The notes under the pieces: generated by a model
The model's database searches: none
Told to the model about the DNA's origin: nothing
The model's input: only the letters and a program-made list of their open reading frames with translations
Shown: in pieces, positions 4,602-28,805 of the stretch
Numbering within the stretch: the stretch's first letter is position 1
Layout of the letters: every line of letters starts with the position of its first letter
Made by a program: the position numbers and the translations under genes
DNA from: Curvularia clavata
Lineage: Eukaryota
Assembly: GCA_023920165.1 (NCBI GenBank)
Contig: CP089279.1
Span: 682,001-746,000, forward strand
Length of the DNA: 64,000 nt
Direction of reading: 5' to 3'

Positions 4602-6166
4602 GCCGATGTGGGACTTTTGGTGGTCAGCGGGGACGGGTGCCGCTAGCGTTCTGTTGCTCTTCTCTTGCATGAACAAGGCGTTTTCTTACTTTTCATAGGA
4701 TGGCTGTCGTACCTTTTTGTTGGGCATAGCTCGAGTATCAGCTAAACTTGTACCGGTACACGACTAGTTACTCTGCAAACTGGGGCCTTTGATGTTCTTA
4801 CTACTAATTTCGATGTTTTGAGTGGTTTTTCTTTTCATCAATTGAAGTTTGGGGCTAACTATGTAGAATACTGATTAGTGAGAGCCGATAGATCTGTGTT
4901 CGCCCACCATGTGAAGATGCCATCGCGCTTCCATAGCTCAATCCGCTTCCCCACATGCCTTCCTTAACCAGAAGAGAAGGATGGATACTACATCGGTGCG
5001 AACATCCGTTTTCGATACAACTACATGCACTTTGTCTGCTCGCTGATTACTCAGTATCCCTCGCCCCTCGCATTCCCATCGCCTCCCCGCTCTTTTCCCG
5101 TGTCTTCTCTCGCACCCGCATCTGCACCGCGAGCCGGCCCAAGCTAGAAACAGCATCGTGTTGCTGAGCTGAGAGTCCGCCACAAAACGATGGGCGTCAA
5201 GGCGATAGGCTGAATTTTCTTGGCGCCGCTTTTCTGGATACAAGGCGGGACTAGGCTCGCCTTGTACTGGTGGCCTCGAAGCTCATTCCTCAAAAATGCC
5301 AACTCAGCTCCTCCATCCCCACCCCACTTGCACGCCAGCTCGTGCACGGGGGGGTGCCCAGCCCAGCCCAGCTCACCGTAAGTCGCCAAATGGCAGTGCT
5401 AATTGCGTGCGCTCTTGGAAAGTGTCTTTTTGCGAGGGAATTGCTGTGCCACATTCTTGGGGATGCTTGCAACGGAATGAAGTTGCAACTACCTATGTAG
5501 GCGCGTATCGTAAGTGGAGACCAGAGATGCGAAAATAGTATACATAGCAATCAGCATAGGATTCTCCACCCCACCTTCAACCACAACTGCATGTCAAGCC
5601 GCCTTCACAAGCCTTGCTTCCTGCTGACCGCTGACGGGCGTGGCCCCGCTGTTGCCCGACCAGCTCATCCTGACGTTAACCGCAACGCCTTCAGCCTTGA
5701 GCATGGGCAAGCCTGCACGAAGCGGCATCGAGGCAGTGCGGCGATTGGCGCGAGTAGCGGATAACAAAGAAAGAGAGGGCTTACTATAGCGGCCGCCTAA
5801 AAAAGGGTGCTGGCCTATTGCCATGACTGGTACGCGAGAATGGGCGGCTGGCGGGGGCGGGCTGAGGGTTTTGGCGCGATAAGTTCTGGTAGGTTGGAGG
5901 ATGGGTGGGAATGCGTTGCTTTAAGGTTGGGGCGCACACAGGTTGCGAGTATAGGGTACTTTCTGCCACCCCCGCCGCTCGTTCTCCCTTCTGCATTGTT
6001 CGTCTTACCTTGACGTACGGACTTTTTGGAAATTAACTACTTTGTTTCTCTTACCGACTACCGAGATTGCGGATCGAATGCAGTTGGTCCTTGGATTTCG
6101 GGCCTGTTGACTGGACTTTGTATACTCTTGCAGCTTGCATCCGTCAGGTTAATCTAAAATTGCTTC

Positions 6167-7486
6167 ATGATGAGGCTCATAACGAGCACCGGGCTGGCAA
6201 TTGCTGCTAGTCAGGTTCTCTTCTCTTCGACTCTCGCACAAGAAACTTATGTCTCATCGAGTTCGCTGGCTTCAACAGCTTCTTCTGCTTCTGCTTCTTC
6301 GTCGGCATCGTCGACGGCATCATCACAACCAACGCCCTCAAAAGAGCCAACGGTCCATCTCATCAAAGCCGGTGCAGGTGGCTTCAAGTTTACGCCACAG
6401 GAGCTTCACAATGTATCGGTGGGCGACATTATAAGTTGGGAGTTTTATCCGCCCGACCATTCGGTTGCGAGAGCAGAGTTTGGCTCAGCATGTGTGCCGT
6501 ACGAAGACACAGGAAAAGACAAGGTCGGCTTCTGGTCTGGAACGCAATATGTCAACAATACAGATGAGGTTTGCGACCCCAAAGTATGCGGAGGTGTTTG
6601 GATATACTAACCTTTGACTAGCTTACCTACTTCAACATCACCATCAACTCGACGGAGCCCATATTCTTCTACTGCGCGGCACCAAACAGCTGTATCGGTG
6701 AGCACATGGTGGGCGCCATCAACCCCAACTCGACACAGACACTGGCTTCACAGGTCCAAGCTGCTGCCCAGGCAGATTTCCAGATAGCACCTGGTCAGCC
6801 GATTCCTGCAGAGGCTTCATCGACCCTTTCTAGCTACTCCGGAGCGACTGGAACACCCCCACCAAGCAACTATAACGCAAACCACAGCAGTTCTACACTT
6901 TCCGGTGGAGCTATAGCCGGTATCGTTGTGGGCAGTGTTGCATTCCTGGTGATTTGTGCGGCGCTTTTCTTCTTCGTGGGTCGTTCGAAGTCGCTGAAGG
7001 AAACGCTCAAGCAACAAAATGCCCCGAACAACGGGGATCCGCACATGAGCCAACAATATGGAGCTGGAGTGCCCTATGGCGACGGAGGACTTGCGTCACC
7101 TGGCTTCCAACCATCTCGTCCTGGATATGCGACGCCGCCGCCAGGTCAACAGGCCGATTACGGGTTTGGGTCGCCGCCTCAGTATGGCCAGCACAGTGTT
7201 AGTGAACAGCACCTAAGTGGGTGGACTAGCCCGACAGCACACCAAGGGCACTTGAGCATGATGAGCAACACCAGTGGCATGAGCCAACAACAGTAAGTGG
7301 TGAAGGGATATTTTTTTTCGGCTGTGGATAGTAGTTGCTGACGTCTTTCCCCCCCTCAGATTGGATCAATTAAAGTACGCGCACATGACGGCACAGGCAG
7401 CTCCGGCAGAGCTGCATAGTCCACCGCTTCAGCAACATTCTTTTTCGGCCGAGCTGGAGGCGCCTAGTAATGATAAGACGAGATAA
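6167..7486 (+). CDS. Secreted/membrane Ser-rich protein with cupredoxin-like domain and one TM helix
   Basis: Signal peptide, Ser-rich stretch, FTPQ..VGD.I.WEFYPPDHSV..C.P and FFYCAAPNSCIGEHMVGAIN motifs, TM GAIAGIVVGSVAFLVICAALFFFV. Introns about 6569-6621 and 7293-7359; stop TAA at 7484-7486. Confidence 0.75.
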
Positions 7487-23422: not shown

Positions 23423-24895
23423 ATGAGCACCCTCGCAAATAACACTAACCCACTATGGTGGAAAGATCCTGGAATCCGGAAGCTCAATTTCCTCCTATTG
23501 ACGTCTTATCTTGGTGCAACAGGCGACGGATATGTCAATTCACTCATTTCTAGCCTCATCGCAAACCCCAGATATCTCTCCGACATCAAAGGACTTTTAG
23601 ATACCAGGGTCTTGGGACTTGTTGTTGCCTCTCATTCCCTAGGCTGCATTGCCGGCTTCTTGCCAGCACCATGGGTCTCCGAGCGATATGGTCGCCGAGC
23701 CGGTATCCTTGTCGGTAACATTGGCAGGCTTGCCGGATTCACAGGCCAAATATTCTGCAGAACATTTGAGCAGTTTCTTGCAATGCGCATGCTGGTCGGC
23801 TTTTCGAGCATGTTCAACACCATTTCATCGTCGGCGCTGCTGGTTGAACTTGCACATCCACGCCAAAGAGCCGTAGCTGGCGCCCTTTTCAACACATGCT
23901 ATTTCCTTGGCGCGGCCATAGCGGCGTGGACGTCATATGAGTCTTTGAAGATCCAGAGCGCGTGGTCATGGAAGTTGCCGGTTGCTGTTCAGCTCTTCTG
24001 GTCCGTGGCTCAACTTACGTTTTGTGCGTTCTGCCCAGAGTCACTTAGTTGGCTTGTACGGCATGGAAAAGAGGAAAAGGCCAAGGCAATTATGGTTCAC
24101 TATCATGCGAATGGGCGTGAGGATGACGAGCTGGTTTGTTCGGAAATGGCACGCATGAGTGCGGCGGTTAATGAGGCGAGGCAGACCACAGTGACTGGAT
24201 GGCGAGCTCTAGTTTCTACGCCCGGGAATCGCAGACGTCTTGTACTATCCATGGTAATTGCGGTATCAACACAGTGGGTCGGAAATGGCATCATTAGCTA
24301 CTATTTAGCACCTGTCTTACGGACCGTCGGCATCACAAACTCTTTTCGGCAACAGAGTATCAACGGTAGCCTGCAAATCTACAACTGGCTATTGGCTATC
24401 TGTGCAGCGCTGCTCTGCGAGAAAGCAGGCCGACGCCGTCTCTTCTTAACGTCGACAAGTACCATGCTTCTATTCATGGTCCTCGTTACTATTTGCTCGG
24501 CTTTATACTCGACTACAGGCTCAGCTTCCGCTGGATACGCAGTCATTGTCTTTCTCTTCTTGTTTCTTGGTGGCTACGTCATTGGACTCACGCCTATCCC
24601 CATTCTCTATGTCAACGAGATATGGCCTAGTCATCTCAGGACAAAAGGTACCAGCGTCTTCTGGGTCACGCAGGCGGTCGCAGTTTGCTTCAACCAGTTT
24701 GTGAATCCTGTGGCGCTAAGCAAGATTGCATGGCGATACTACCTGGTTTATGTGGGTGTGCTGGTGGCAGTCATGAATTTCATCTTCTTCTATGTGCCAG
24801 AGACTAAGGGGCTCTCGCGCGAGCAGGTGGGCGATATGTTTGATCGCCCGAGGCGCCATTCTATTGAGCTTGTGGATGTCAGGCCGGAGAGCTAG
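23423..24895 (+). CDS. MFS sugar porter (lactose/cellobiose permease-like), intronless
   Basis: 490 aa, about 12 hydrophobic segments, YGRR, ELAHP, PES, AGRRRLF and VPETKG sugar-porter signatures. Confidence 0.9.
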   Translation: MSTLANNTNPLWWKDPGIRKLNFLLLTSYLGATGDGYVNSLISSLIANPRYLSDIKGLLDTRVLGLVVASHSLGCIAGFLPAPWVSERYGRRAGILVGNIGRLAGFTGQIFCRTFEQFLAMRMLVGFSSMFNTISSSALLVELAHPRQRAVAGALFNTCYFLGAAIAAWTSYESLKIQSAWSWKLPVAVQLFWSVAQLTFCAFCPESLSWLVRHGKEEKAKAIMVHYHANGREDDELVCSEMARMSAAVNEARQTTVTGWRALVSTPGNRRRLVLSMVIAVSTQWVGNGIISYYLAPVLRTVGITNSFRQQSINGSLQIYNWLLAICAALLCEKAGRRRLFLTSTSTMLLFMVLVTICSALYSTTGSASAGYAVIVFLFLFLGGYVIGLTPIPILYVNEIWPSHLRTKGTSVFWVTQAVAVCFNQFVNPVALSKIAWRYYLVYVGVLVAVMNFIFFYVPETKGLSREQVGDMFDRPRRHSIELVDVRPES

Positions 24896-25151
24896 GGGTA
24901 ATAGCGTCTATGAATTAGAGATATCTGGTATGATGTATCGCCAAGAGTCAATCGTCACACATGACATGATATCCCAACGACGCTTGTCCTACTGAGCTAA
25001 CATGTCAAAGGAACTTCAGCACATCAAGCCATTCCAGGTACTTGATTATAAAGATTCTTTCTCTCTTATATCTCTCTTTCTCTATGACCATTACCGCTGT
25101 CAAACTACCCCATCGGATTGCTGGTCACTTCTACCAACCGATAGTGCATCT

Positions 25152-26030
25152 TCAACTAAAGTTAAGGTTTACCGTGCCTCCTGTGTTTGTCATCCCCGGA
25201 ATCACATTACGGCCTGAAATATTCCCATTGAACACAGCTCCATGATACGAATGCGTTGGTTGATTCTGGTTCTTCGATGCGGGCCCCTGGTTGGACAACT
25301 CAATCTCCCTCTGCAGCCGTGCAAACGCGTTCTTCCGGCCTTCTCCGTATATCAGAGACATGTGCACATTAAAGATGCCTAGCAACGAATATGCCAAGTC
25401 TTCGTCGCGCTTCGTCTCGCGCTGTCCTACCCAAGACATGCGCTCATCAACGCCAAATCCATCAAGTGGATTCCCTTGAAGAGCTTCGAGCTTGATATTG
25501 GTGATACTGTGGAGCTCGTGCAATAGAGTGTATTTGTCGCCGAGTAGCTGGCCTTCGGCTGAAAAGAAGTTGACCGATGCGGGTGCCACCAGCTCTTGAA
25601 GTGTCCAGCCTCTCTTGAACCATCTACTTTGCTGGAAAGCAGGATACCAGTCTTGCTGGGCGGGTGGTCCACTGGCTGGGGTGTTGGTTGAAACGTCAGC
25701 CAAGTAGACGTAGCATCGAGCAGCGTCGCGGTACCAGGCAAACATGGAGTTGATGGCCTCGGTGAGTTCTGCACTGCTCGACTTATCGATGCAGCAGGTG
25801 TCTATCCAAAAGTAACGAAGGCCATGCTCGGCAGCCTGGTCTGCGCAGAACTGAAGCTTCCGGTAGCCTGCCTTAGAAGTCCCCGTTCCTTTCTCCAGAT
25901 CAGCCAGAGTAACCTCATCGCGGTCTGCTCCCCATGTATGGGACAAGATGGCGTAACGGGGGATGGCGTCGCCTATGAACTCCTCCAGGATATAGCTGCC
26001 ATCATGAGTGTCGCGTCGCAGGAGGCGCAT
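25152..26030 (-). CDS. HET-domain (TIR-like) protein with a C-terminal putative amyloid motif
   Basis: MRLL start, YAILSHTWG, WIDTCCIDKSSSAELTEAINSMFAWY, SRWFKRGWTLQEL and DLAYSLLGIFNVHMSLIYGEG are HET-domain motifs. Ends in SYHGAVFNGNISGRNVIPGMTNTGGTVNLNFS*. Confidence 0.93.
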   Translation of the reverse strand: MRLLRRDTHDGSYILEEFIGDAIPRYAILSHTWGADRDEVTLADLEKGTGTSKAGYRKLQFCADQAAEHGLRYFWIDTCCIDKSSSAELTEAINSMFAWYRDAARCYVYLADVSTNTPASGPPAQQDWYPAFQQSRWFKRGWTLQELVAPASVNFFSAEGQLLGDKYTLLHELHSITNIKLEALQGNPLDGFGVDERMSWVGQRETKRDEDLAYSLLGIFNVHMSLIYGEGRKNAFARLQREIELSNQGPASKNQNQPTHSYHGAVFNGNISGRNVIPGMTNTGGTVNLNFS

Positions 26031-26258
26031 GCTGGAAAGAGCAGAATCAAACGATCACTTCTAAGATTACAAGGAAATGCAAAGTGTACGAGGTAGACAT
26101 GCATTCGAAACCACAGGTCATTTAACCGCGCAAGGCTGAGGCTGAGGCTGAGATTCGCTTGACACGTCGTAGTTGTCACAGCTACGCATCCTCCCAATCC
26201 TTCTACCCCTTACCACTACTTGATCACCAGATTCTACCACATCACCATCATATCATTG

Positions 26259-28805
26259 ATGGCCAACACGTTTTACGGTTCCTGGAATGCCAATAACGCG
26301 ATCCCAGCTCCACAATGTATGGCTGGTGGGATCATGAACTTCAACTTCGGCTCCGACCGACCTGGCAACGATGGGACGCGTTCGCATCGCCAGCTCGAGC
26401 CTTTCTCGACGGTACCATTTCCACCGGACCCAGACTTTGTCGATCGACCTGAGATACTCGGGTGGCTGCACAAGATGTGCGTGGGAAATGGTAACCGGGC
26501 AGCGCTGGTGGGTTTCGGTGGGGTAGGGTACGTATGTTGTTGTCGATGTCGACGTTTCCTGTTGCATGGTCCAATATTGACATGTAATAGAAAATCGCAG
26601 TTGGCGATACAGTTCGCCCATAGTATTCACGATGCCAGCCCACAGACATTTGTTTTCTGGGTGCATGCCAGCAGCCGCACTCAATTTGAGAAGGCGTATA
26701 GAGAGATCGCGGACCGTTTACAGCTGCCAGATAGGAACGATCCCAATAAAAACGTACTGATGCTAGTGAGCAACTGGTTGCGAGATAAGGCAAATGGACA
26801 GTGGTTCATGGTGCTGGATAACGTGGACCAAGAAGACATCTTCTCCTCGCCACGGAAGCGCCGACTAGATGAGGCGAATGCCGACGCGCAGACTTCTTTA
26901 GACATTTACCTCCCCCAAAGCCGCAATGGATCGATACTGGTCACGTCAAGAAACAGAGATGCGGCGGTGGAGCTGGTAGGTTCCAATAGGATCAAAGAGG
27001 TGCTCGCCATGGACAAGAAAGAAGGTCTCCAACTGCTTCGCAAAAAGCTATGTCAGCCGCCGTCCAAGGAGAGTGCTGTAAAGCTGCTGTTTACGCTAGG
27101 TCATGTACCTCTCGCCATCACCCAGGCATCTGCGTACATCAATCGACGTGTGCGTATGTCAATCACAGAATATCTAGACGGTTTCCACAGAGACAACAAG
27201 GAACGAGAGAGGCTGCTCAGCTGGGATTCAAGCGATTTGCGCCGAGACAAGAGCGCGTCGAATTCTATTTTAACGACATGGCAGATGTCATTTGAGCAGA
27301 TTCGACACGAGCGACCGTCAGCGGCTGAGCTGTTATCGCTAATGAGCTTTTTCAATTCCCGGGGCATACCGGACTGGATACTGCGGAAATCCAGAAAGAA
27401 ATCTGCGGGAGCAGCTGCTCGAAGAAATTCCCGTAATGAAGGAGAAGATGAAGACGTGGACAGCGAATTGAACGAGGACCTGGACATTCTGCGGGCATAC
27501 TCACTAATATCAGCGACTGCAGAAAATGACTCGTATGAGATGCACCCTCTAGTGCAGTTCTGCATGCGAGCCTGGCTATCTTCTTTTGGCGAGGTTGATC
27601 GGTGGCACCATGAGTTTGTGGTTCTAATGGACCAAGAGCTGTGTCCGCCGAGCCATGATAACTTGGTGAGATTCTCGCAGTTATTTCCCCACATAGAACC
27701 GGTATTTAACAGCACACCATCTAAAGAGACGCTAAGAGCATGGGCAAGAGTGCTGTGCGGCACAGCGGTTTATGTTTCCAGAAAAGGACGCTTCACTACT
27801 GCGCAACATGTAGTAGAGAAAGCACTGTCTGTCACAGAGAACGCCCTGGGTTTCAATGATGACTTTACGCTTGGTATCGCAGCGGTCTTGATGCATATCC
27901 TAGTATGGCTAGACCTTCTCCATGAGGCAGAAGAGATTGGTCAGCGAGTGCTACAAGGGTACCAGGAGCTAGGAAAGCAAGACCTTTTCACATTCTGCGT
28001 CGCTAAAGAGCTAGCGAAAATAATGAGGGAACAGGGCAGGTACGAGGAGTCGAAAAAGCTTGTTCAACAAATAACAGAGTCGCACAAAGAAGAGCGTAAT
28101 CCTTTCATATTGGGTAATCAAGCTGGTATATTGAAAGACCTAGGCCAGTTAGAGGAGGCAGAGAAACTCTTCAGGCAAGCGATGGAAAGGTGTAAGGAAC
28201 AGCTAGGAGAGCATCATGCCGACATGCTCTGGCTTACGTCTAGTCTAGCAAGAGTGCTGTCAAAGCAGGGTCGGTGGCTAGAGGCAGAAACGTTTCTTCG
28301 GCAAACATTAGAAGTAAGCAAGGAACGGCTAGGAGAGCGTCACCCCGAAACACTGGAGAATATTCTCTTTCTAGCAAAAGCACTAGAACATCAAGGCCAA
28401 TTTGTAGAGGCAGAGAAACTCTTCTGGCAAGCGATAGAGGGTTTTGGAGAGTTAGCAGAGGATGATTTCAGGACACTCTTCGCTATGGACGAGTTAGCAA
28501 CAATGCTAATAGCTCAGGAAAGGTACGAGGAGGCAGTGCAGCTAGTACGACAAGCACGGGAAGTGTATAGAAACATAGACGAACCCGGCGTTCCAACAAC
28601 ACGGTGTGCCAAATTCCTTGCTTATCTTCTGCTGGACCTCAATCAACATACAGAAGCAATGGAGCTATATCAACAAGTGTACAGTGGGTACATGTCATGT
28701 TGTGGACCTGAGAACCCACAAACCATAAAGTGTTACGAAGATCTCGCAACACTGCAACAACAGATGCAGCAAGCGGGTTCAGATGAAGTAACAGTCTCTG
28801 TCTAG
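26259..28805 (+). CDS. Fungal NLR-like protein: short N-terminal motif, NB-ARC-type P-loop NTPase, TPR repeats
   Basis: First ATG 26259. VPFPPDPDFVDR, Walker A GFGGVG|KSQ split by intron 26528-26590, Walker B WFMVLDNVD, ILVTSR, GHVPLAITQA, MHPLVQ, then TPR units such as LARVLSKQGRWLEAETFLRQTLEVSKERLGERHPET. No N-terminal effector domain. Confidence 0.92.
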   Translation: MANTFYGSWNANNAIPAPQCMAGGIMNFNFGSDRPGNDGTRSHRQLEPFSTVPFPPDPDFVDRPEILGWLHKMCVGNGNRAALVGFGGVGYVCCCRCRRFLLHGPILTCNRKSQLAIQFAHSIHDASPQTFVFWVHASSRTQFEKAYREIADRLQLPDRNDPNKNVLMLVSNWLRDKANGQWFMVLDNVDQEDIFSSPRKRRLDEANADAQTSLDIYLPQSRNGSILVTSRNRDAAVELVGSNRIKEVLAMDKKEGLQLLRKKLCQPPSKESAVKLLFTLGHVPLAITQASAYINRRVRMSITEYLDGFHRDNKERERLLSWDSSDLRRDKSASNSILTTWQMSFEQIRHERPSAAELLSLMSFFNSRGIPDWILRKSRKKSAGAAARRNSRNEGEDEDVDSELNEDLDILRAYSLISATAENDSYEMHPLVQFCMRAWLSSFGEVDRWHHEFVVLMDQELCPPSHDNLVRFSQLFPHIEPVFNSTPSKETLRAWARVLCGTAVYVSRKGRFTTAQHVVEKALSVTENALGFNDDFTLGIAAVLMHILVWLDLLHEAEEIGQRVLQGYQELGKQDLFTFCVAKELAKIMREQGRYEESKKLVQQITESHKEERNPFILGNQAGILKDLGQLEEAEKLFRQAMERCKEQLGEHHADMLWLTSSLARVLSKQGRWLEAETFLRQTLEVSKERLGERHPETLENILFLAKALEHQGQFVEAEKLFWQAIEGFGELAEDDFRTLFAMDELATMLIAQERYEEAVQLVRQAREVYRNIDEPGVPTTRCAKFLAYLLLDLNQHTEAMELYQQVYSGYMSCCGPENPQTIKCYEDLATLQQQMQQAGSDEVTVSV
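27960..28750 (+). repeat. Degenerate ~42-aa TPR repeat array of the NLR
   Basis: Recurrent LA..L..QG...EAE.L..QA.E and LGE.H units; recurrent DNA words such as gaggcagagaaactcttc and ctaggagagc. Confidence 0.75.

What the first reader, a model, noticed from the sequence alone, without database searches (positions are those of the whole stretch)
25152..28805. HET effector and effector-less NLR share a terminal motif: candidate amyloid-signalling immune pair
Seen: the HET protein ends AVFNGNISGRNVIPGMTNT-GGTVNLNFS* (about 25152-25250, minus strand). The neighbouring NLR starts MANTFYGSWNANNAIPAPQCMAGGIMNFNFG (26259-26351). Aligned, 10 of 29 columns are identical with one gap (F-x-G-x5-N-x-I-P-x4/5-G-G-x2-N-x-N-F). 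In both proteins the motif lies outside the folded domain behind a polar linker, and the NLR has no effector domain of its own. Established: this is the layout of fungal NLR amyloid signalling (NWD2/HET-S, PNT1/HELLP, sigma/SesA-SesB), where an N-terminal NLR motif templates the C-terminal motif of an adjacent effector. Inference: here the effector is a HET/TIR-like domain rather than a HeLo-type pore former. By eye the motif does not resemble the HET-s/HRAM two-repeat, PP/RHIM or sigma consensus, so it may be a little-characterised or new motif family that activates a TIR-like enzyme by amyloid clustering.
Basis: partly seen in the sequence, partly recalled or inferred. Interest (0 to 1): 0.92.

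Follow-up and report, generated by a model that had tools for sequence, protein, structure and literature searches.

The report
HET effector paired with motif-sharing NLR
A fungal immune-type receptor and the neighbouring cell-death (HET) protein carry the same short glycine/asparagine-rich tail, the hallmark of prion-like "amyloid signalling", here coupled to a HET effector, a pairing not reported in the papers searched.

Summary
A 292-aa HET-domain protein (25152-26030, minus) and an effector-less NB-ARC/TPR NLR (26259-28805, plus) are transcribed divergently, 228 bp apart. Both carry a ~26-residue motif, F-x-G-x-I-x-G-x-x-V-I-P-G-x-H-x-x-G-G-T-x-N-F-N-F, at the HET C-end and the NLR N-end. 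The two window copies alone are weakly alike (shuffle p about 0.004). At family level the homology is clear: a profile built only from HET tails finds 40 NLR N-termini.

- The pair recurs in one metagenome locus and, by consecutive accessions, in four named Pleosporales genomes.
- All-in-one HET-NB-ARC-TPR relatives lack the motif.
- Full copies of the motif lie almost only at NLR starts or effector ends.

The motif is not HET-specific: it also ends PNP_UDP and SesB-like hydrolase proteins. It is probably the uncharacterised PF01048_015 motif of Wojciechowski et al. 2022, known there from PNP_UDP pairs.

The HET coupling appears new. A 2012 search for HET/STAND pairs found none, and the 2022 survey marks one such paired NLR "noasm".

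Amyloid formation and HET enzymology remain untested. Verdict: a new variant of a known kind, of good interest.

The parts
25152..26030 (-). HET effector gene, 292 aa, single exon (the stop codon is 25152-25154)
   Evidence: ORF; Pfam HET 2.1e-14; more than 100 homologues of about 300 aa
25290..26030 (-). Folded HET domain, residues 1-247, with invariant E146 in the WTLQE stretch
   Evidence: AF2 pLDDT 72-96 over residues 1-250; invariant columns in A1; weak TIR-type fold matches, Z up to 4.3
25248..25289 (-). Polar linker, residues 248-261, not conserved
   Evidence: No conserved columns in A1; pLDDT below 50
25155..25247 (-). C-terminal motif YHGAVFNGNISGRNVIPGMTNTGGTVNLNFS (residues 262-292)
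   Evidence: Motif HMM 46.9 bits; invariant F267, G273, V276, G284, G285, N288; an identical 160-nt contig in an RNA library covers it (X23)
26031..26258 (.). 228-bp divergent intergenic region, presumably a shared promoter
   Evidence: Coordinates; L001 has the same head-to-head layout with about 265 bp between the starts
26259..28805 (+). NLR gene: exon 1 26259-26527, intron 26528-26590, exon 2 26591-28805; 827 aa once spliced
   Evidence: ORF; sequence; P0121, 827 aa and 98% identical to the unspliced ORF; a contig of run X24 skips these 63 nt
26268..26351 (+). N-terminal motif TFYGSWNANNAIPAPQCMAGGIMNFNFG (residues 4-31)
   Evidence: Motif HMM 32.7 bits; 36 of 120 NLR homologues carry the motif at the same place; 10 synonymous-only codon differences in 33 codons against L001
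26352..26399 (+). Polar linker, residues 32-47
   Evidence: Variable in the NLR N-termini listed; absent from all-in-one relatives, whose match starts at about query residue 48-52
26400..27581 (+). NB-ARC nucleotide-binding module from PFSTVPF to DUF7779, with the P-loop split by the intron
   Evidence: Pfam NB-ARC 7.3e-4 on the unspliced ORF and DUF7779 5.8e-8; PF00931 precomputed for P0121; invariant GxGGxGKS in A3
27942..28694 (+). TPR sensor repeats (approximate limits)
   Evidence: Pfam TPR_12 1.1e-47 and TPR_10 4e-33

Best explanation
This is a two-gene fungal NLR/effector module that signals through a shared terminal motif.

Shown here:
- An NB-ARC/TPR receptor lacks an effector domain. 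A stand-alone HET protein is encoded head-to-head beside it.
- Both carry one copy of a conserved ~26-residue G/N/T/V-rich motif, at the receptor N-end and the effector C-end.
- The motif family sits almost only at those two kinds of termini. It is linked to NB-ARC and NACHT receptors and to HET, PNP_UDP and SesB-like effectors.
- Relatives exist in which HET is fused directly to the NB-ARC without the motif.

Inferred by analogy with NWD2/HET-S, PNT1/HELLP and PUASM:
- A ligand bound by the TPR array triggers NB-ARC oligomerisation.
- Oligomerisation clusters the N-terminal motifs, which fold together into a cross-beta (beta-arch) nucleus.
- This nucleus templates the disordered tail of the HET protein and draws HET domains into a higher-order assembly.
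- Induced proximity then activates the TIR-like HET domain, as NB-ARC oligomerisation would do directly in the fused form, and the cell dies.
For: - Anatomy.
- Motif homology across the two protein families: the HET-only HMM finds 40 NLR N-termini among 120; the 32-sequence alignment A2 is clean.
- Conservation: motif invariant against a variable linker; 74 of 120 HET homologues and 36 of 120 NLR homologues carry it.
- Pairing: L001 has the same divergent pair. Four of 5 named HET/NLR pairs have consecutive accessions on one contig. Eight more HET/NLR hit pairs share contig lengths of 8-46 kb.
- Alternative architecture: 19 of 80 HET loci are HET-NB-ARC fusions without the motif.
- Terminal position: of 98 hits among 1.84 billion representatives, 12 are repeat proteins with partial matches and the other 86 carry one full motif. 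Of these 86, 48 lie at N-termini and 26 at C-termini; the remaining 12 are near-terminal or sit in read-through gene models.
- Same motif on a PNP_UDP/NLR pair with consecutive accessions, and on DUF676 and PNP_UDP proteins.
- The tail is predicted disordered in the monomer (pLDDT below 50 for 251-269 and 278-292).
- The mRNA probably includes the motif-coding 5' end: a contig of run X24 lacking the intron reaches 26227, upstream of the ATG at 26259.
- Ten synonymous-only codon differences in 33 N-terminal codons against L001.
Against: - No fibril, prion or cross-seeding data exist for this motif.
- No amyloid predictor such as ArchCandy could be run.
- Two prolines are conserved inside the motif (G-P-I and V-P-G). 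That is unusual for an amyloid core unless they sit in arcs.
- The window's own NLR copy is a divergent member (8.9 bits to the HET-tail profile).
- In one of 5 named pairs the accessions are not consecutive (Alternaria sp. RS040). In Curvularia kusanoi the listed HET and NLR locus tags are 43 apart.
- HET enzymatic activity is unknown: the review table reads 'ND'. The fold link to TIR is weak here (Z up to 4.3; no Foldseek match at E up to 0.001).
- Run X24 is of unknown type, so the intron-less contig could be DNA of a relative.
Confidence: 0.75

Rival explanations
1. The shared motif is a homotypic docking tag that does not form amyloid. It would fold into a small ordered beta-structure, such as a beta-hairpin oligomer or a strand added to the NB-ARC ring. 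It recruits the effector to the activated NLR stoichiometrically, with no templating or prion-like propagation.
For: The conserved prolines and the fixed length (25 residues on effectors, 26 on NLRs) would suit a defined fold. No amyloid evidence exists. Effectors carry a single copy, not the double repeat of HET-s-type motifs (notes single copies for some motifs).
Against: At 25-30 residues with a G/N/T/V/F-rich composition, terminal position and a disordered monomer, the motif looks like validated amyloid signalling motifs. The probable identity with PF01048_015 places it among motifs picked up by a pipeline tuned to amyloid-like sequences. No known fold of this size mediates such docking in NLRs.
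Confidence: 0.15
2. The motifs are an inert remnant of gene fission, or of fusion between a HET gene and an NLR. The genes stay adjacent by descent, and the HET protein is regulated independently of the NLR.
For: Fused and split forms coexist. One all-in-one PNP_UDP-NB-ARC model carries an internal copy (P0212).
Against: The fused HET-NB-ARC forms lack the motif, so fission would not leave two copies. The motif is held invariant while the linker drifts. The same motif recurs on three unrelated effector classes and two NOD classes, always at the matching termini.
Confidence: 0.05
3. The resemblance is compositional chance between two unrelated low-complexity tails of neighbouring genes.
For: The window pair alone has only 10 identities and a shuffle p of about 0.004.
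Against: Family-level profile hits reach 36 bits across the protein families. The pairing is repeated in other genomes. Hits are position-specific in a search of 1.84 billion proteins.
Confidence: 0.02

Closest known systems
PF01048_015 motif of Wojciechowski et al. 2022 (PMC9815663), probably one of the 'PUASM 1-2' motifs of the 2025 ASMscan paper (PMC12261475; this equation is my inference)
   Same: It sits at about residues 8-28 of NB-ARC/TPR NLRs with roughly 45-52-residue N-termini, and as a 23-26-residue stretch at the end of the adjacent effector. A Verticillium dahliae NLR start from my motif search (P0292) has PFSTVPF at residue 52. That equals nod_beg 52 of V. longisporum CRK42338.1, which carries PF01048_015 at residues 15-28. 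I also find the motif on PNP_UDP/NLR pairs.
   Different: It was reported only with PNP_UDP, plus one HeLo-like row, in Sordariomycetes and Leotiomycetes, from a handful of pairs, without a consensus in the text and without experiments. No HET-linked pair appears ('PF06985' occurs 0 times in the readable supplements). Identity with my motif is inferred: the profile and FASTA files cannot be read here.
NWD2/HET-S (HRAM) amyloid signalling of Podospora anserina
   Same: Two adjacent genes, an effector-less NLR with an N-terminal motif, an effector with the homologous C-terminal motif, and an existing all-in-one counterpart.
   Different: The effector there is a HeLo pore-former with two 21-residue repeats, and the NLR is NACHT/WD. 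Here there is one 25-residue copy on a HET domain, and the NLR is NB-ARC/TPR. The HRAM pattern (hydrophobic at 5, 8, 10, 16, 18; G at 19) does not fit, and Pfam PF11558 does not match.
PUASM (FxGxGxQxxGxGxF) PNP_UDP/NLR pairs, validated as amyloid and prion (PMC9815663)
   Same: An enzymatic effector rather than a pore-former, a single motif copy, and a motif that opens with V-F-H-G in both the tested PUASM peptide and many HET tails.
   Different: PUASM has a shorter core with a conserved Q and no V-I-P-G...G-G-T-x-N-F-N-F half. None of the hits to my profile shows the PUASM pattern.
Bacterial BASS motifs coupled to TIR2 effectors (Dyrka et al. 2020, bioRxiv 10.1101/2020.01.06.895854)
   Same: An amyloid-type motif joins an NLR to a TIR-family effector encoded next door, and all-in-one forms also exist.
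   Different: Those are bacterial, from an unrelated motif family, and the effector is a canonical TIR_2 domain, not the fungal HET domain.
All-in-one HET-NB-ARC-TPR and HET-NACHT-WD (HET-E/D/R) fungal NLRs
   Same: The same HET and NB-ARC/TPR modules: 15 of the 120 closest NLR relatives carry HET at the N-terminus, and 19 of 80 HET loci continue into NB-ARC.
   Different: There HET is covalently fused. Residues 1-47 of the window NLR and 250-292 of the window HET protein have no counterpart in them.

Membership tests
Fungal two-gene NLR/effector amyloid-signalling architecture | Homologous short motif at the NLR N-terminus and the effector C-terminus | tested here: met
   The HET-tail HMM hits 40 NLR N-termini among 120; alignment A2; window pair Smith-Waterman 42, shuffle p about 0.004
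Fungal two-gene NLR/effector amyloid-signalling architecture | Genes adjacent, and the pairing recurs in other genomes | tested here: met
   Window genes 228 bp apart; L001 has the same divergent pair; consecutive accessions on one contig in 4 of 5 named pairs
Fungal two-gene NLR/effector amyloid-signalling architecture | The NLR lacks an effector domain of its own | tested here: met
   Only 47 residues precede PFSTVPF/NB-ARC, and no Pfam domain lies there
Fungal two-gene NLR/effector amyloid-signalling architecture | The same effector/NOD combination also exists as an all-in-one NLR | tested here: met
   19 of 80 HET loci are HET-NB-ARC fusions; 15 of 120 NLR hits carry PF06985
Fungal two-gene NLR/effector amyloid-signalling architecture | The motif forms amyloid, behaves as a prion-forming domain and cross-seeds between partners | not testable with these tools
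   Needs ThT, EM or ssNMR and Podospora GFP-fusion assays
Fungal two-gene NLR/effector amyloid-signalling architecture | Predicted beta-arch propensity (ArchCandy or the BASS grammar) | not tested
   No such predictor is available here. By reading only: V/I/F/T stretches separated by G, P-G and G-G
HRAM (HET-s-related amyloid motif) | 21-residue unit with hydrophobic residues at 5, 8, 10, 16, 18 and G at 19, usually two repeats on the effector; Pfam PF11558 | tested here: not met
   Pattern as given in PMC4518210. The motif's hydrophobic positions do not fit in any register I tried by hand. The effector carries a single copy. 0 of 32 peptides hit PF11558 at E up to 10, filter-limited
PP / RHIM-like motif | G-hydrophobic-Q-hydrophobic-G core; Pfam PF17046 | tested here: not met
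   No conserved Q in A2; 0 of 32 peptides hit PF17046
Sigma motif | About 40-residue motif; Pfam PF17106 (NACHT_sigma) | tested here: not met
   0 of 32 peptides hit PF17106. P0194, which carries PF17106, is not among the 47 rows hit by the HET-tail HMM
PUASM | FxGxGxQxxGxGxF, found only with PNP_UDP | tested here: not met
   Pattern. It is absent from A2 and from the hits read
PF01048_015 (minor PNP_UDP-associated motif, Wojciechowski 2022) | Match to that profile; NB-ARC/TPR NLR residues about 8-28 and a PNP_UDP C-end | tested here: inconclusive
   The positions, the NOD type and a Verticillium member agree. The profile and sequences are in files that cannot be read here
HET domain (PF06985), TIR-like | Pfam HET match | tested here: met
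   2.1e-14, 54.5 bits against a cutoff of 22.5
HET domain (PF06985), TIR-like | TIR-type flavodoxin-like fold with a conserved glutamate | tested here: inconclusive
   VIA-align best Z 4.3, with 17 of 50 rows TIR, ThsB or SEFIR. No Foldseek match at E up to 0.001. E146 is invariant in A1, but its equivalence to the TIR catalytic Glu was not mapped
NB-ARC/TPR fungal NLR | NB-ARC with an intact P-loop, DUF7779 and a TPR array | tested here: met
   TPR_12 1.1e-47 and DUF7779 5.8e-8. NB-ARC scores 19.3 bits, below the 23.5 cutoff, on the unspliced ORF. PF00931 is precomputed for spliced P0121. GVGKS is restored by the 63-nt intron

The most novel reading that the evidence does not exclude
This would be the first fungal case in which a HET (TIR-like) death domain is fired by prion-like templating rather than by covalent fusion to an NLR. 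The motif would also act as a shared 'bus': one family of ~26-residue tails links NB-ARC and NACHT receptors to three enzyme classes (HET, PNP_UDP, SesB-like hydrolase). A single activated receptor could then seed several unlinked effectors in the same cytoplasm, and effectors could be swapped between receptors simply by carrying the tail.
Probability: 0.5. Interest if true: 0.78.

Novelty: new variant of a known kind. Interest (0 to 1): 0.68.

Why it matters
HET is the most common death domain of fungal incompatibility and NLR genes, yet how it is activated and what it does biochemically remain unknown.

HET was thought not to take part in two-gene amyloid signalling. Daskalov et al. 2012 searched for HET/STAND pairs and found none. 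The 2022 survey seeded its search with PF06985 and lists no such pair. It labels OAK96859.1, an NLR paired with a HET protein, 'noasm'.

A stand-alone 292-aa HET protein with a detachable activation tail gives a simple experimental handle. Seeding the tail should switch the enzyme on, which would allow a direct test of the proposed TIR-like activity.

The finding also extends a barely described motif to a large Pleosporales family, including the plant-pathogen genera Bipolaris, Alternaria, Curvularia and Stemphylium. It shows the motif is shared among three effector classes.

Tried and rejected
- Whole genome: none is held for this window, so genome-wide counts of motif carriers were not possible.
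- Complex prediction: 3 copies of the NLR N-end with 3 copies of the HET tail gave 'no answer' (score 0.00, mark 0.34; controls not folded). This counts neither for nor against binding.
- Foldseek of the HET model against the PDB: no match at E up to 0.001. VIA-align gave only weak, TIR-enriched rows.
- The metagenome locus scan was seeded on HET-domain words, so 79 of its 80 loci were other HET architectures. Only L001 had the pair.
- A region search with the Fusarium NLR N-end (P0223, residues 1-45) returned 3 proteins, including the query itself, and did not reach the NLR12 or PF01048_015 carriers.
- I considered NLR34 and NLR12 of Wojciechowski 2022 as identities for the motif. NLR34 sits mostly on Fusarium NACHT proteins and on Tuber proteins. 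NLR12 is mostly on NACHT NLRs and maps to PF01048_022/NANBNtm_020. Neither fits.
- Motif strings were not found in the readable supplements or in any paper text.
- The HET C-end codon comparison was out of register and is not used.
- Parts of the stretch without contig cover are not interpreted.
- Earlier scan notes held nothing on this genome or motif.


Full report
**1. What is there**

The minus-strand ORF 25152-26030 encodes a 292-aa protein whose only Pfam match is HET (2.1e-14). The plus-strand ORF 26259-28805 starts 228 bp away on the other strand. It encodes an NB-ARC/DUF7779/TPR protein (TPR_12 1.1e-47).

The 848-aa ORF reads through a 63-nt in-frame intron (26528-26590, GT..AG) that splits the P-loop. 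Splicing gives GVGKSQ. It also gives the 827-aa protein P0121, which a public record assigns to Curvularia clavata (98% identity to the unspliced ORF).

Only 47 residues precede the conserved PFSTVPF...GLGGVGKS start of the nucleotide-binding module. The receptor therefore has no effector domain. The upstream neighbour, 23423-24895, is an ordinary MFS sugar transporter.

**2. The observation**

The two termini read as the finding states. A local alignment gives 10 identities in 26 columns with one gap, score 42. Shuffling either peptide reaches this score in 78 and 68 of 20000 trials. On its own the pair is suggestive, not decisive.

**3. The motif is a conserved family on both sides**

The HET protein has thousands of relatives, and the best 120 were listed.
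- 74 of the 120 end with F-[HNY]-G-P-I-S-G-[RH]-Y-V-[VI]-P-G-T-H-V-T-G-G-T-V-N-F-[DN]-F.
- In a 26-sequence alignment the HET domain is conserved and the next 20-35 residues are not. The motif again has invariant F267, G273, V276, G284, G285 and N288.

Of the 120 best NLR relatives:
- 36 start with the same motif at residues 3-8 (one at residue 53).
- Most of the rest are truncated gene models, or all-in-one NLRs with an N-terminal HET (15) or PNP_UDP (3) domain.

An HMM built from 68 distinct HET tails, with the window left out and no NLR sequence included, gave 41 rows among the 120 NLR proteins. Forty are at the N-terminus, at up to 36 bits. The window's NLR is a divergent member at 8.9 bits.

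A joint alignment of 32 motifs is gap-poor. Its consensus is V-F-x-G-x-I-S-G-x-x-V-I-P-G-x-H-x-T-G-G-T-x-N-F-N-F-G. The NLR copies are one residue longer.

**4. Pairing elsewhere**

A six-frame search with the motif profile covered 80 metagenome loci holding HET relatives, plus the window. It found four hits: the two in the window and two in L001. In L001 the HET gene (5829-6746, plus) and the NLR (start 5564, minus) have the same divergent layout.

Five HET/NLR hit pairs from named genomes that share a contig were looked up. Four have consecutive GenBank accessions:
- Phaeosphaeria sp., KAH7396964/63
- Stagonospora sp. SRC1lsM3a, OAK96860/59
- Setomelanomma holmii, KAF2030384/83
- Bipolaris oryzae, EUC48962/61

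I take consecutive accessions on one contig as adjacency; this is an inference from how such accessions are usually assigned. The fifth pair, Alternaria sp. RS040, is not consecutive.

Eight further HET/NLR hit pairs share contig lengths of 8-46 kb. In Curvularia kusanoi the listed HET and NLR locus tags are 43 apart, so linkage is common but not universal.

**5. Two architectures**

Of the 80 HET loci, 19 continue on the same strand into NB-ARC. In these, the NLR match starts at about query residue 48-52 and the HET match ends at about residue 245-260. In the fused form both linkers and both motifs are therefore absent. This is the 'all-in-one versus two-gene' duality that Daskalov 2012 and Loquet & Saupe 2017 describe for validated amyloid-signalling modules (passages).

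**6. Where else the motif occurs**

The A2 profile was scored against 1.84 billion representative proteins and gave 98 hits at E up to 0.001.
- 12 are long repeat proteins with many partial matches. I regard these as unrelated.
- The other 86 carry one full copy: 48 at an N-terminus, 18 of them visibly followed by PFSTVPF...GLGG.
- 26 lie within 14 residues of a C-terminus.
- 12 are read-through gene models or near-terminal cases.

Of 29 effector-type carriers, by upstream sequence:
- 9 are PNP_UDP-like
- 7 are SesB-like/DUF676
- 6 are HET
- 7 are unassigned; one of these, P0268, is really an NLR start

Pfam confirms PNP_UDP_1 in P0253, P0285 and P0322 (P0319 falls below the cutoff), DUF676 in P0255, HET in P0093, and a NACHT NLR with the motif at its start in P0304. 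A PNP_UDP protein and an NLR of Zalerion maritima that both carry the motif have consecutive accessions on one 63-kb contig.

The motif is therefore a general NLR-to-effector coupling module, not a HET-specific one.

**7. Is it a known motif?**

None of the 32 motif peptides matches Pfam's HET-s, PP (Ses_B) or sigma models. Only two unrelated families appeared, at E above 0.1 (HMMER's filters limit this to roughly E below 0.1).
- The motif has no conserved Q, which excludes the PP core and PUASM's FxGxGxQxxGxGxF.
- It does not fit the HRAM spacing given in Daskalov 2015.

In Wojciechowski 2022 I read sections 19, 24 and 61 and searched the readable supplements.
- The effector-primed search started from HET among 19 domains.
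- 'PF06985' occurs nowhere in those tables.
- OAK96859.1, which is my P0184 and is paired with HET protein OAK96860.1, is listed as NB-ARC TPR, 'not-clustered', 'noasm'.
- An Alternaria alternata entry of matching length, OWY45267.1, is labelled the same way (identity with P0138 is inferred from species and length only).

The same paper has a minor motif, PF01048_015, described as 'only present in four pairs' with PNP_UDP. It lies at about residues 8-28 of NB-ARC/TPR NLRs whose NOD begins at 45-52. My hit P0292 is a Verticillium dahliae NLR start with PFSTVPF at residue 52. That matches nod_beg 52 of V. longisporum CRK42338.1, which carries PF01048_015 at 15-28.

I therefore think the family is the same. 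I could not prove it, because the profile and FASTA supplements cannot be read here.

On the literature:
- Daskalov 2012 states that no HET/STAND pairs were found (passage).
- Passages holding the search terms in the 2023, 2024, 2025 and 2026 papers listed mention no HET-linked amyloid motif.
- Text searches for motif strings found nothing relevant.
- For bacteria, BASS motifs next to TIR2 effectors are described.

**8. Structure and expression**

AlphaFold2 with alignment A1 folds residues 1-247 confidently (mean pLDDT 82). It leaves 251-269 and 278-292 below 50, as expected for a flexible tail.

Foldseek finds no PDB match at E up to 0.001. VIA-align's best rows are weak (Z up to 4.3), but 17 of 50 are TIR, ThsB or SEFIR domains and several others are nucleoside 2-deoxyribosyltransferases. 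This is compatible with the published remote HET-TIR link and does not establish it.

Laying public contigs on 25000-27200 gave two results.
- One contig of run X24 (type unknown) covers 26227-26528 joined to 26592-26886. It skips the 63-nt intron and starts 32 nt upstream of the ATG.
- A 160-nt contig from an RNA library (X23) is identical to 25150-25309, the HET motif region.

Together these are a hint that both motif-coding ends are transcribed.

Against L001, the first 33 NLR codons show 11 identical, 10 synonymous-only and 12 non-synonymous positions. That fits coding constraint on the N-terminal motif.

**9. Mechanism**

Shown: the anatomy, the motif homology, the recurrent pairing, the terminal position and the alternative fused architecture.

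Inferred by analogy with NWD2/HET-S and PUASM:
- Ligand-driven NB-ARC oligomerisation clusters the N-terminal motifs into a cross-beta nucleus.
- The nucleus templates the HET tail and thereby assembles and activates HET domains.
- Activation by proximity is what the fused HET-NB-ARC-TPR form implies. It is also how TIR enzymes are known to work; that statement rests on established knowledge, not on a test here.

The conserved prolines and the lack of any biophysical data are the main reservations.

**10. Verdict**

Two corrections apply: the motif is shared with other effector classes, and it was probably catalogued already as a minor PNP_UDP motif. The HET coupling and the large Pleosporales family appear unreported. 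This is a new variant of a known kind.

Noticed in passing
window 26528-26590: A 63-nt in-frame intron splits the NLR P-loop (GVG|KS), so the unspliced ORF stays open and looks like an intact 848-aa protein. L001 and many relatives have an intron at the same place, which explains why many database gene models start just after it.
   Followed up: yes
L001 about 5430-5470 (minus strand): In L001 a second short intron with in-frame stops lies between the motif and PFSTVPF. This probably explains why many metagenome gene calls are 40-100-aa fragments holding only the motif.
   Followed up: partly
P0212 residues 363-387 (Dactylonectria estremocensis, 1201 aa): A PNP_UDP-NB-ARC-TPR model carries an internal, NLR-type copy of the motif between the effector and the NOD. 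It is either a true all-in-one protein with a retained motif or two adjacent genes merged by annotation.
   Followed up: partly
P0125 and P0204 (Alternaria rosae, locus tags J4E91_011130 and J4E91_011127, one 127-kb contig): Two NLRs carrying different variants of the motif (A-I-P-A-P-x-C-G-P-G-G versus V-I-P-G-T-H-T-A-A-G-G) lie three genes apart. This may be a cluster with effectors in between.
   Followed up: no
P0304 (460 aa) and P0327: The motif also starts NACHT/NPHP3_N-type NLRs, so it is not restricted to NB-ARC receptors.
   Followed up: partly
window 23423-24895 (+): An MFS sugar transporter (Sugar_tr 1.6e-81) lies immediately upstream of the HET gene's 3' end. It looks ordinary, with no evident link to the pair.
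   Followed up: no
window 26058 and 26227 (run X24): Contigs of X24 stop at 26058, with an adapter-like loose end, and start at 26227, leaving the central ~170 bp of the intergenic region uncovered. This would fit short 5' UTRs of about 28 and 32 nt for the two divergent genes, but contigs cannot prove transcript ends.
   Followed up: no
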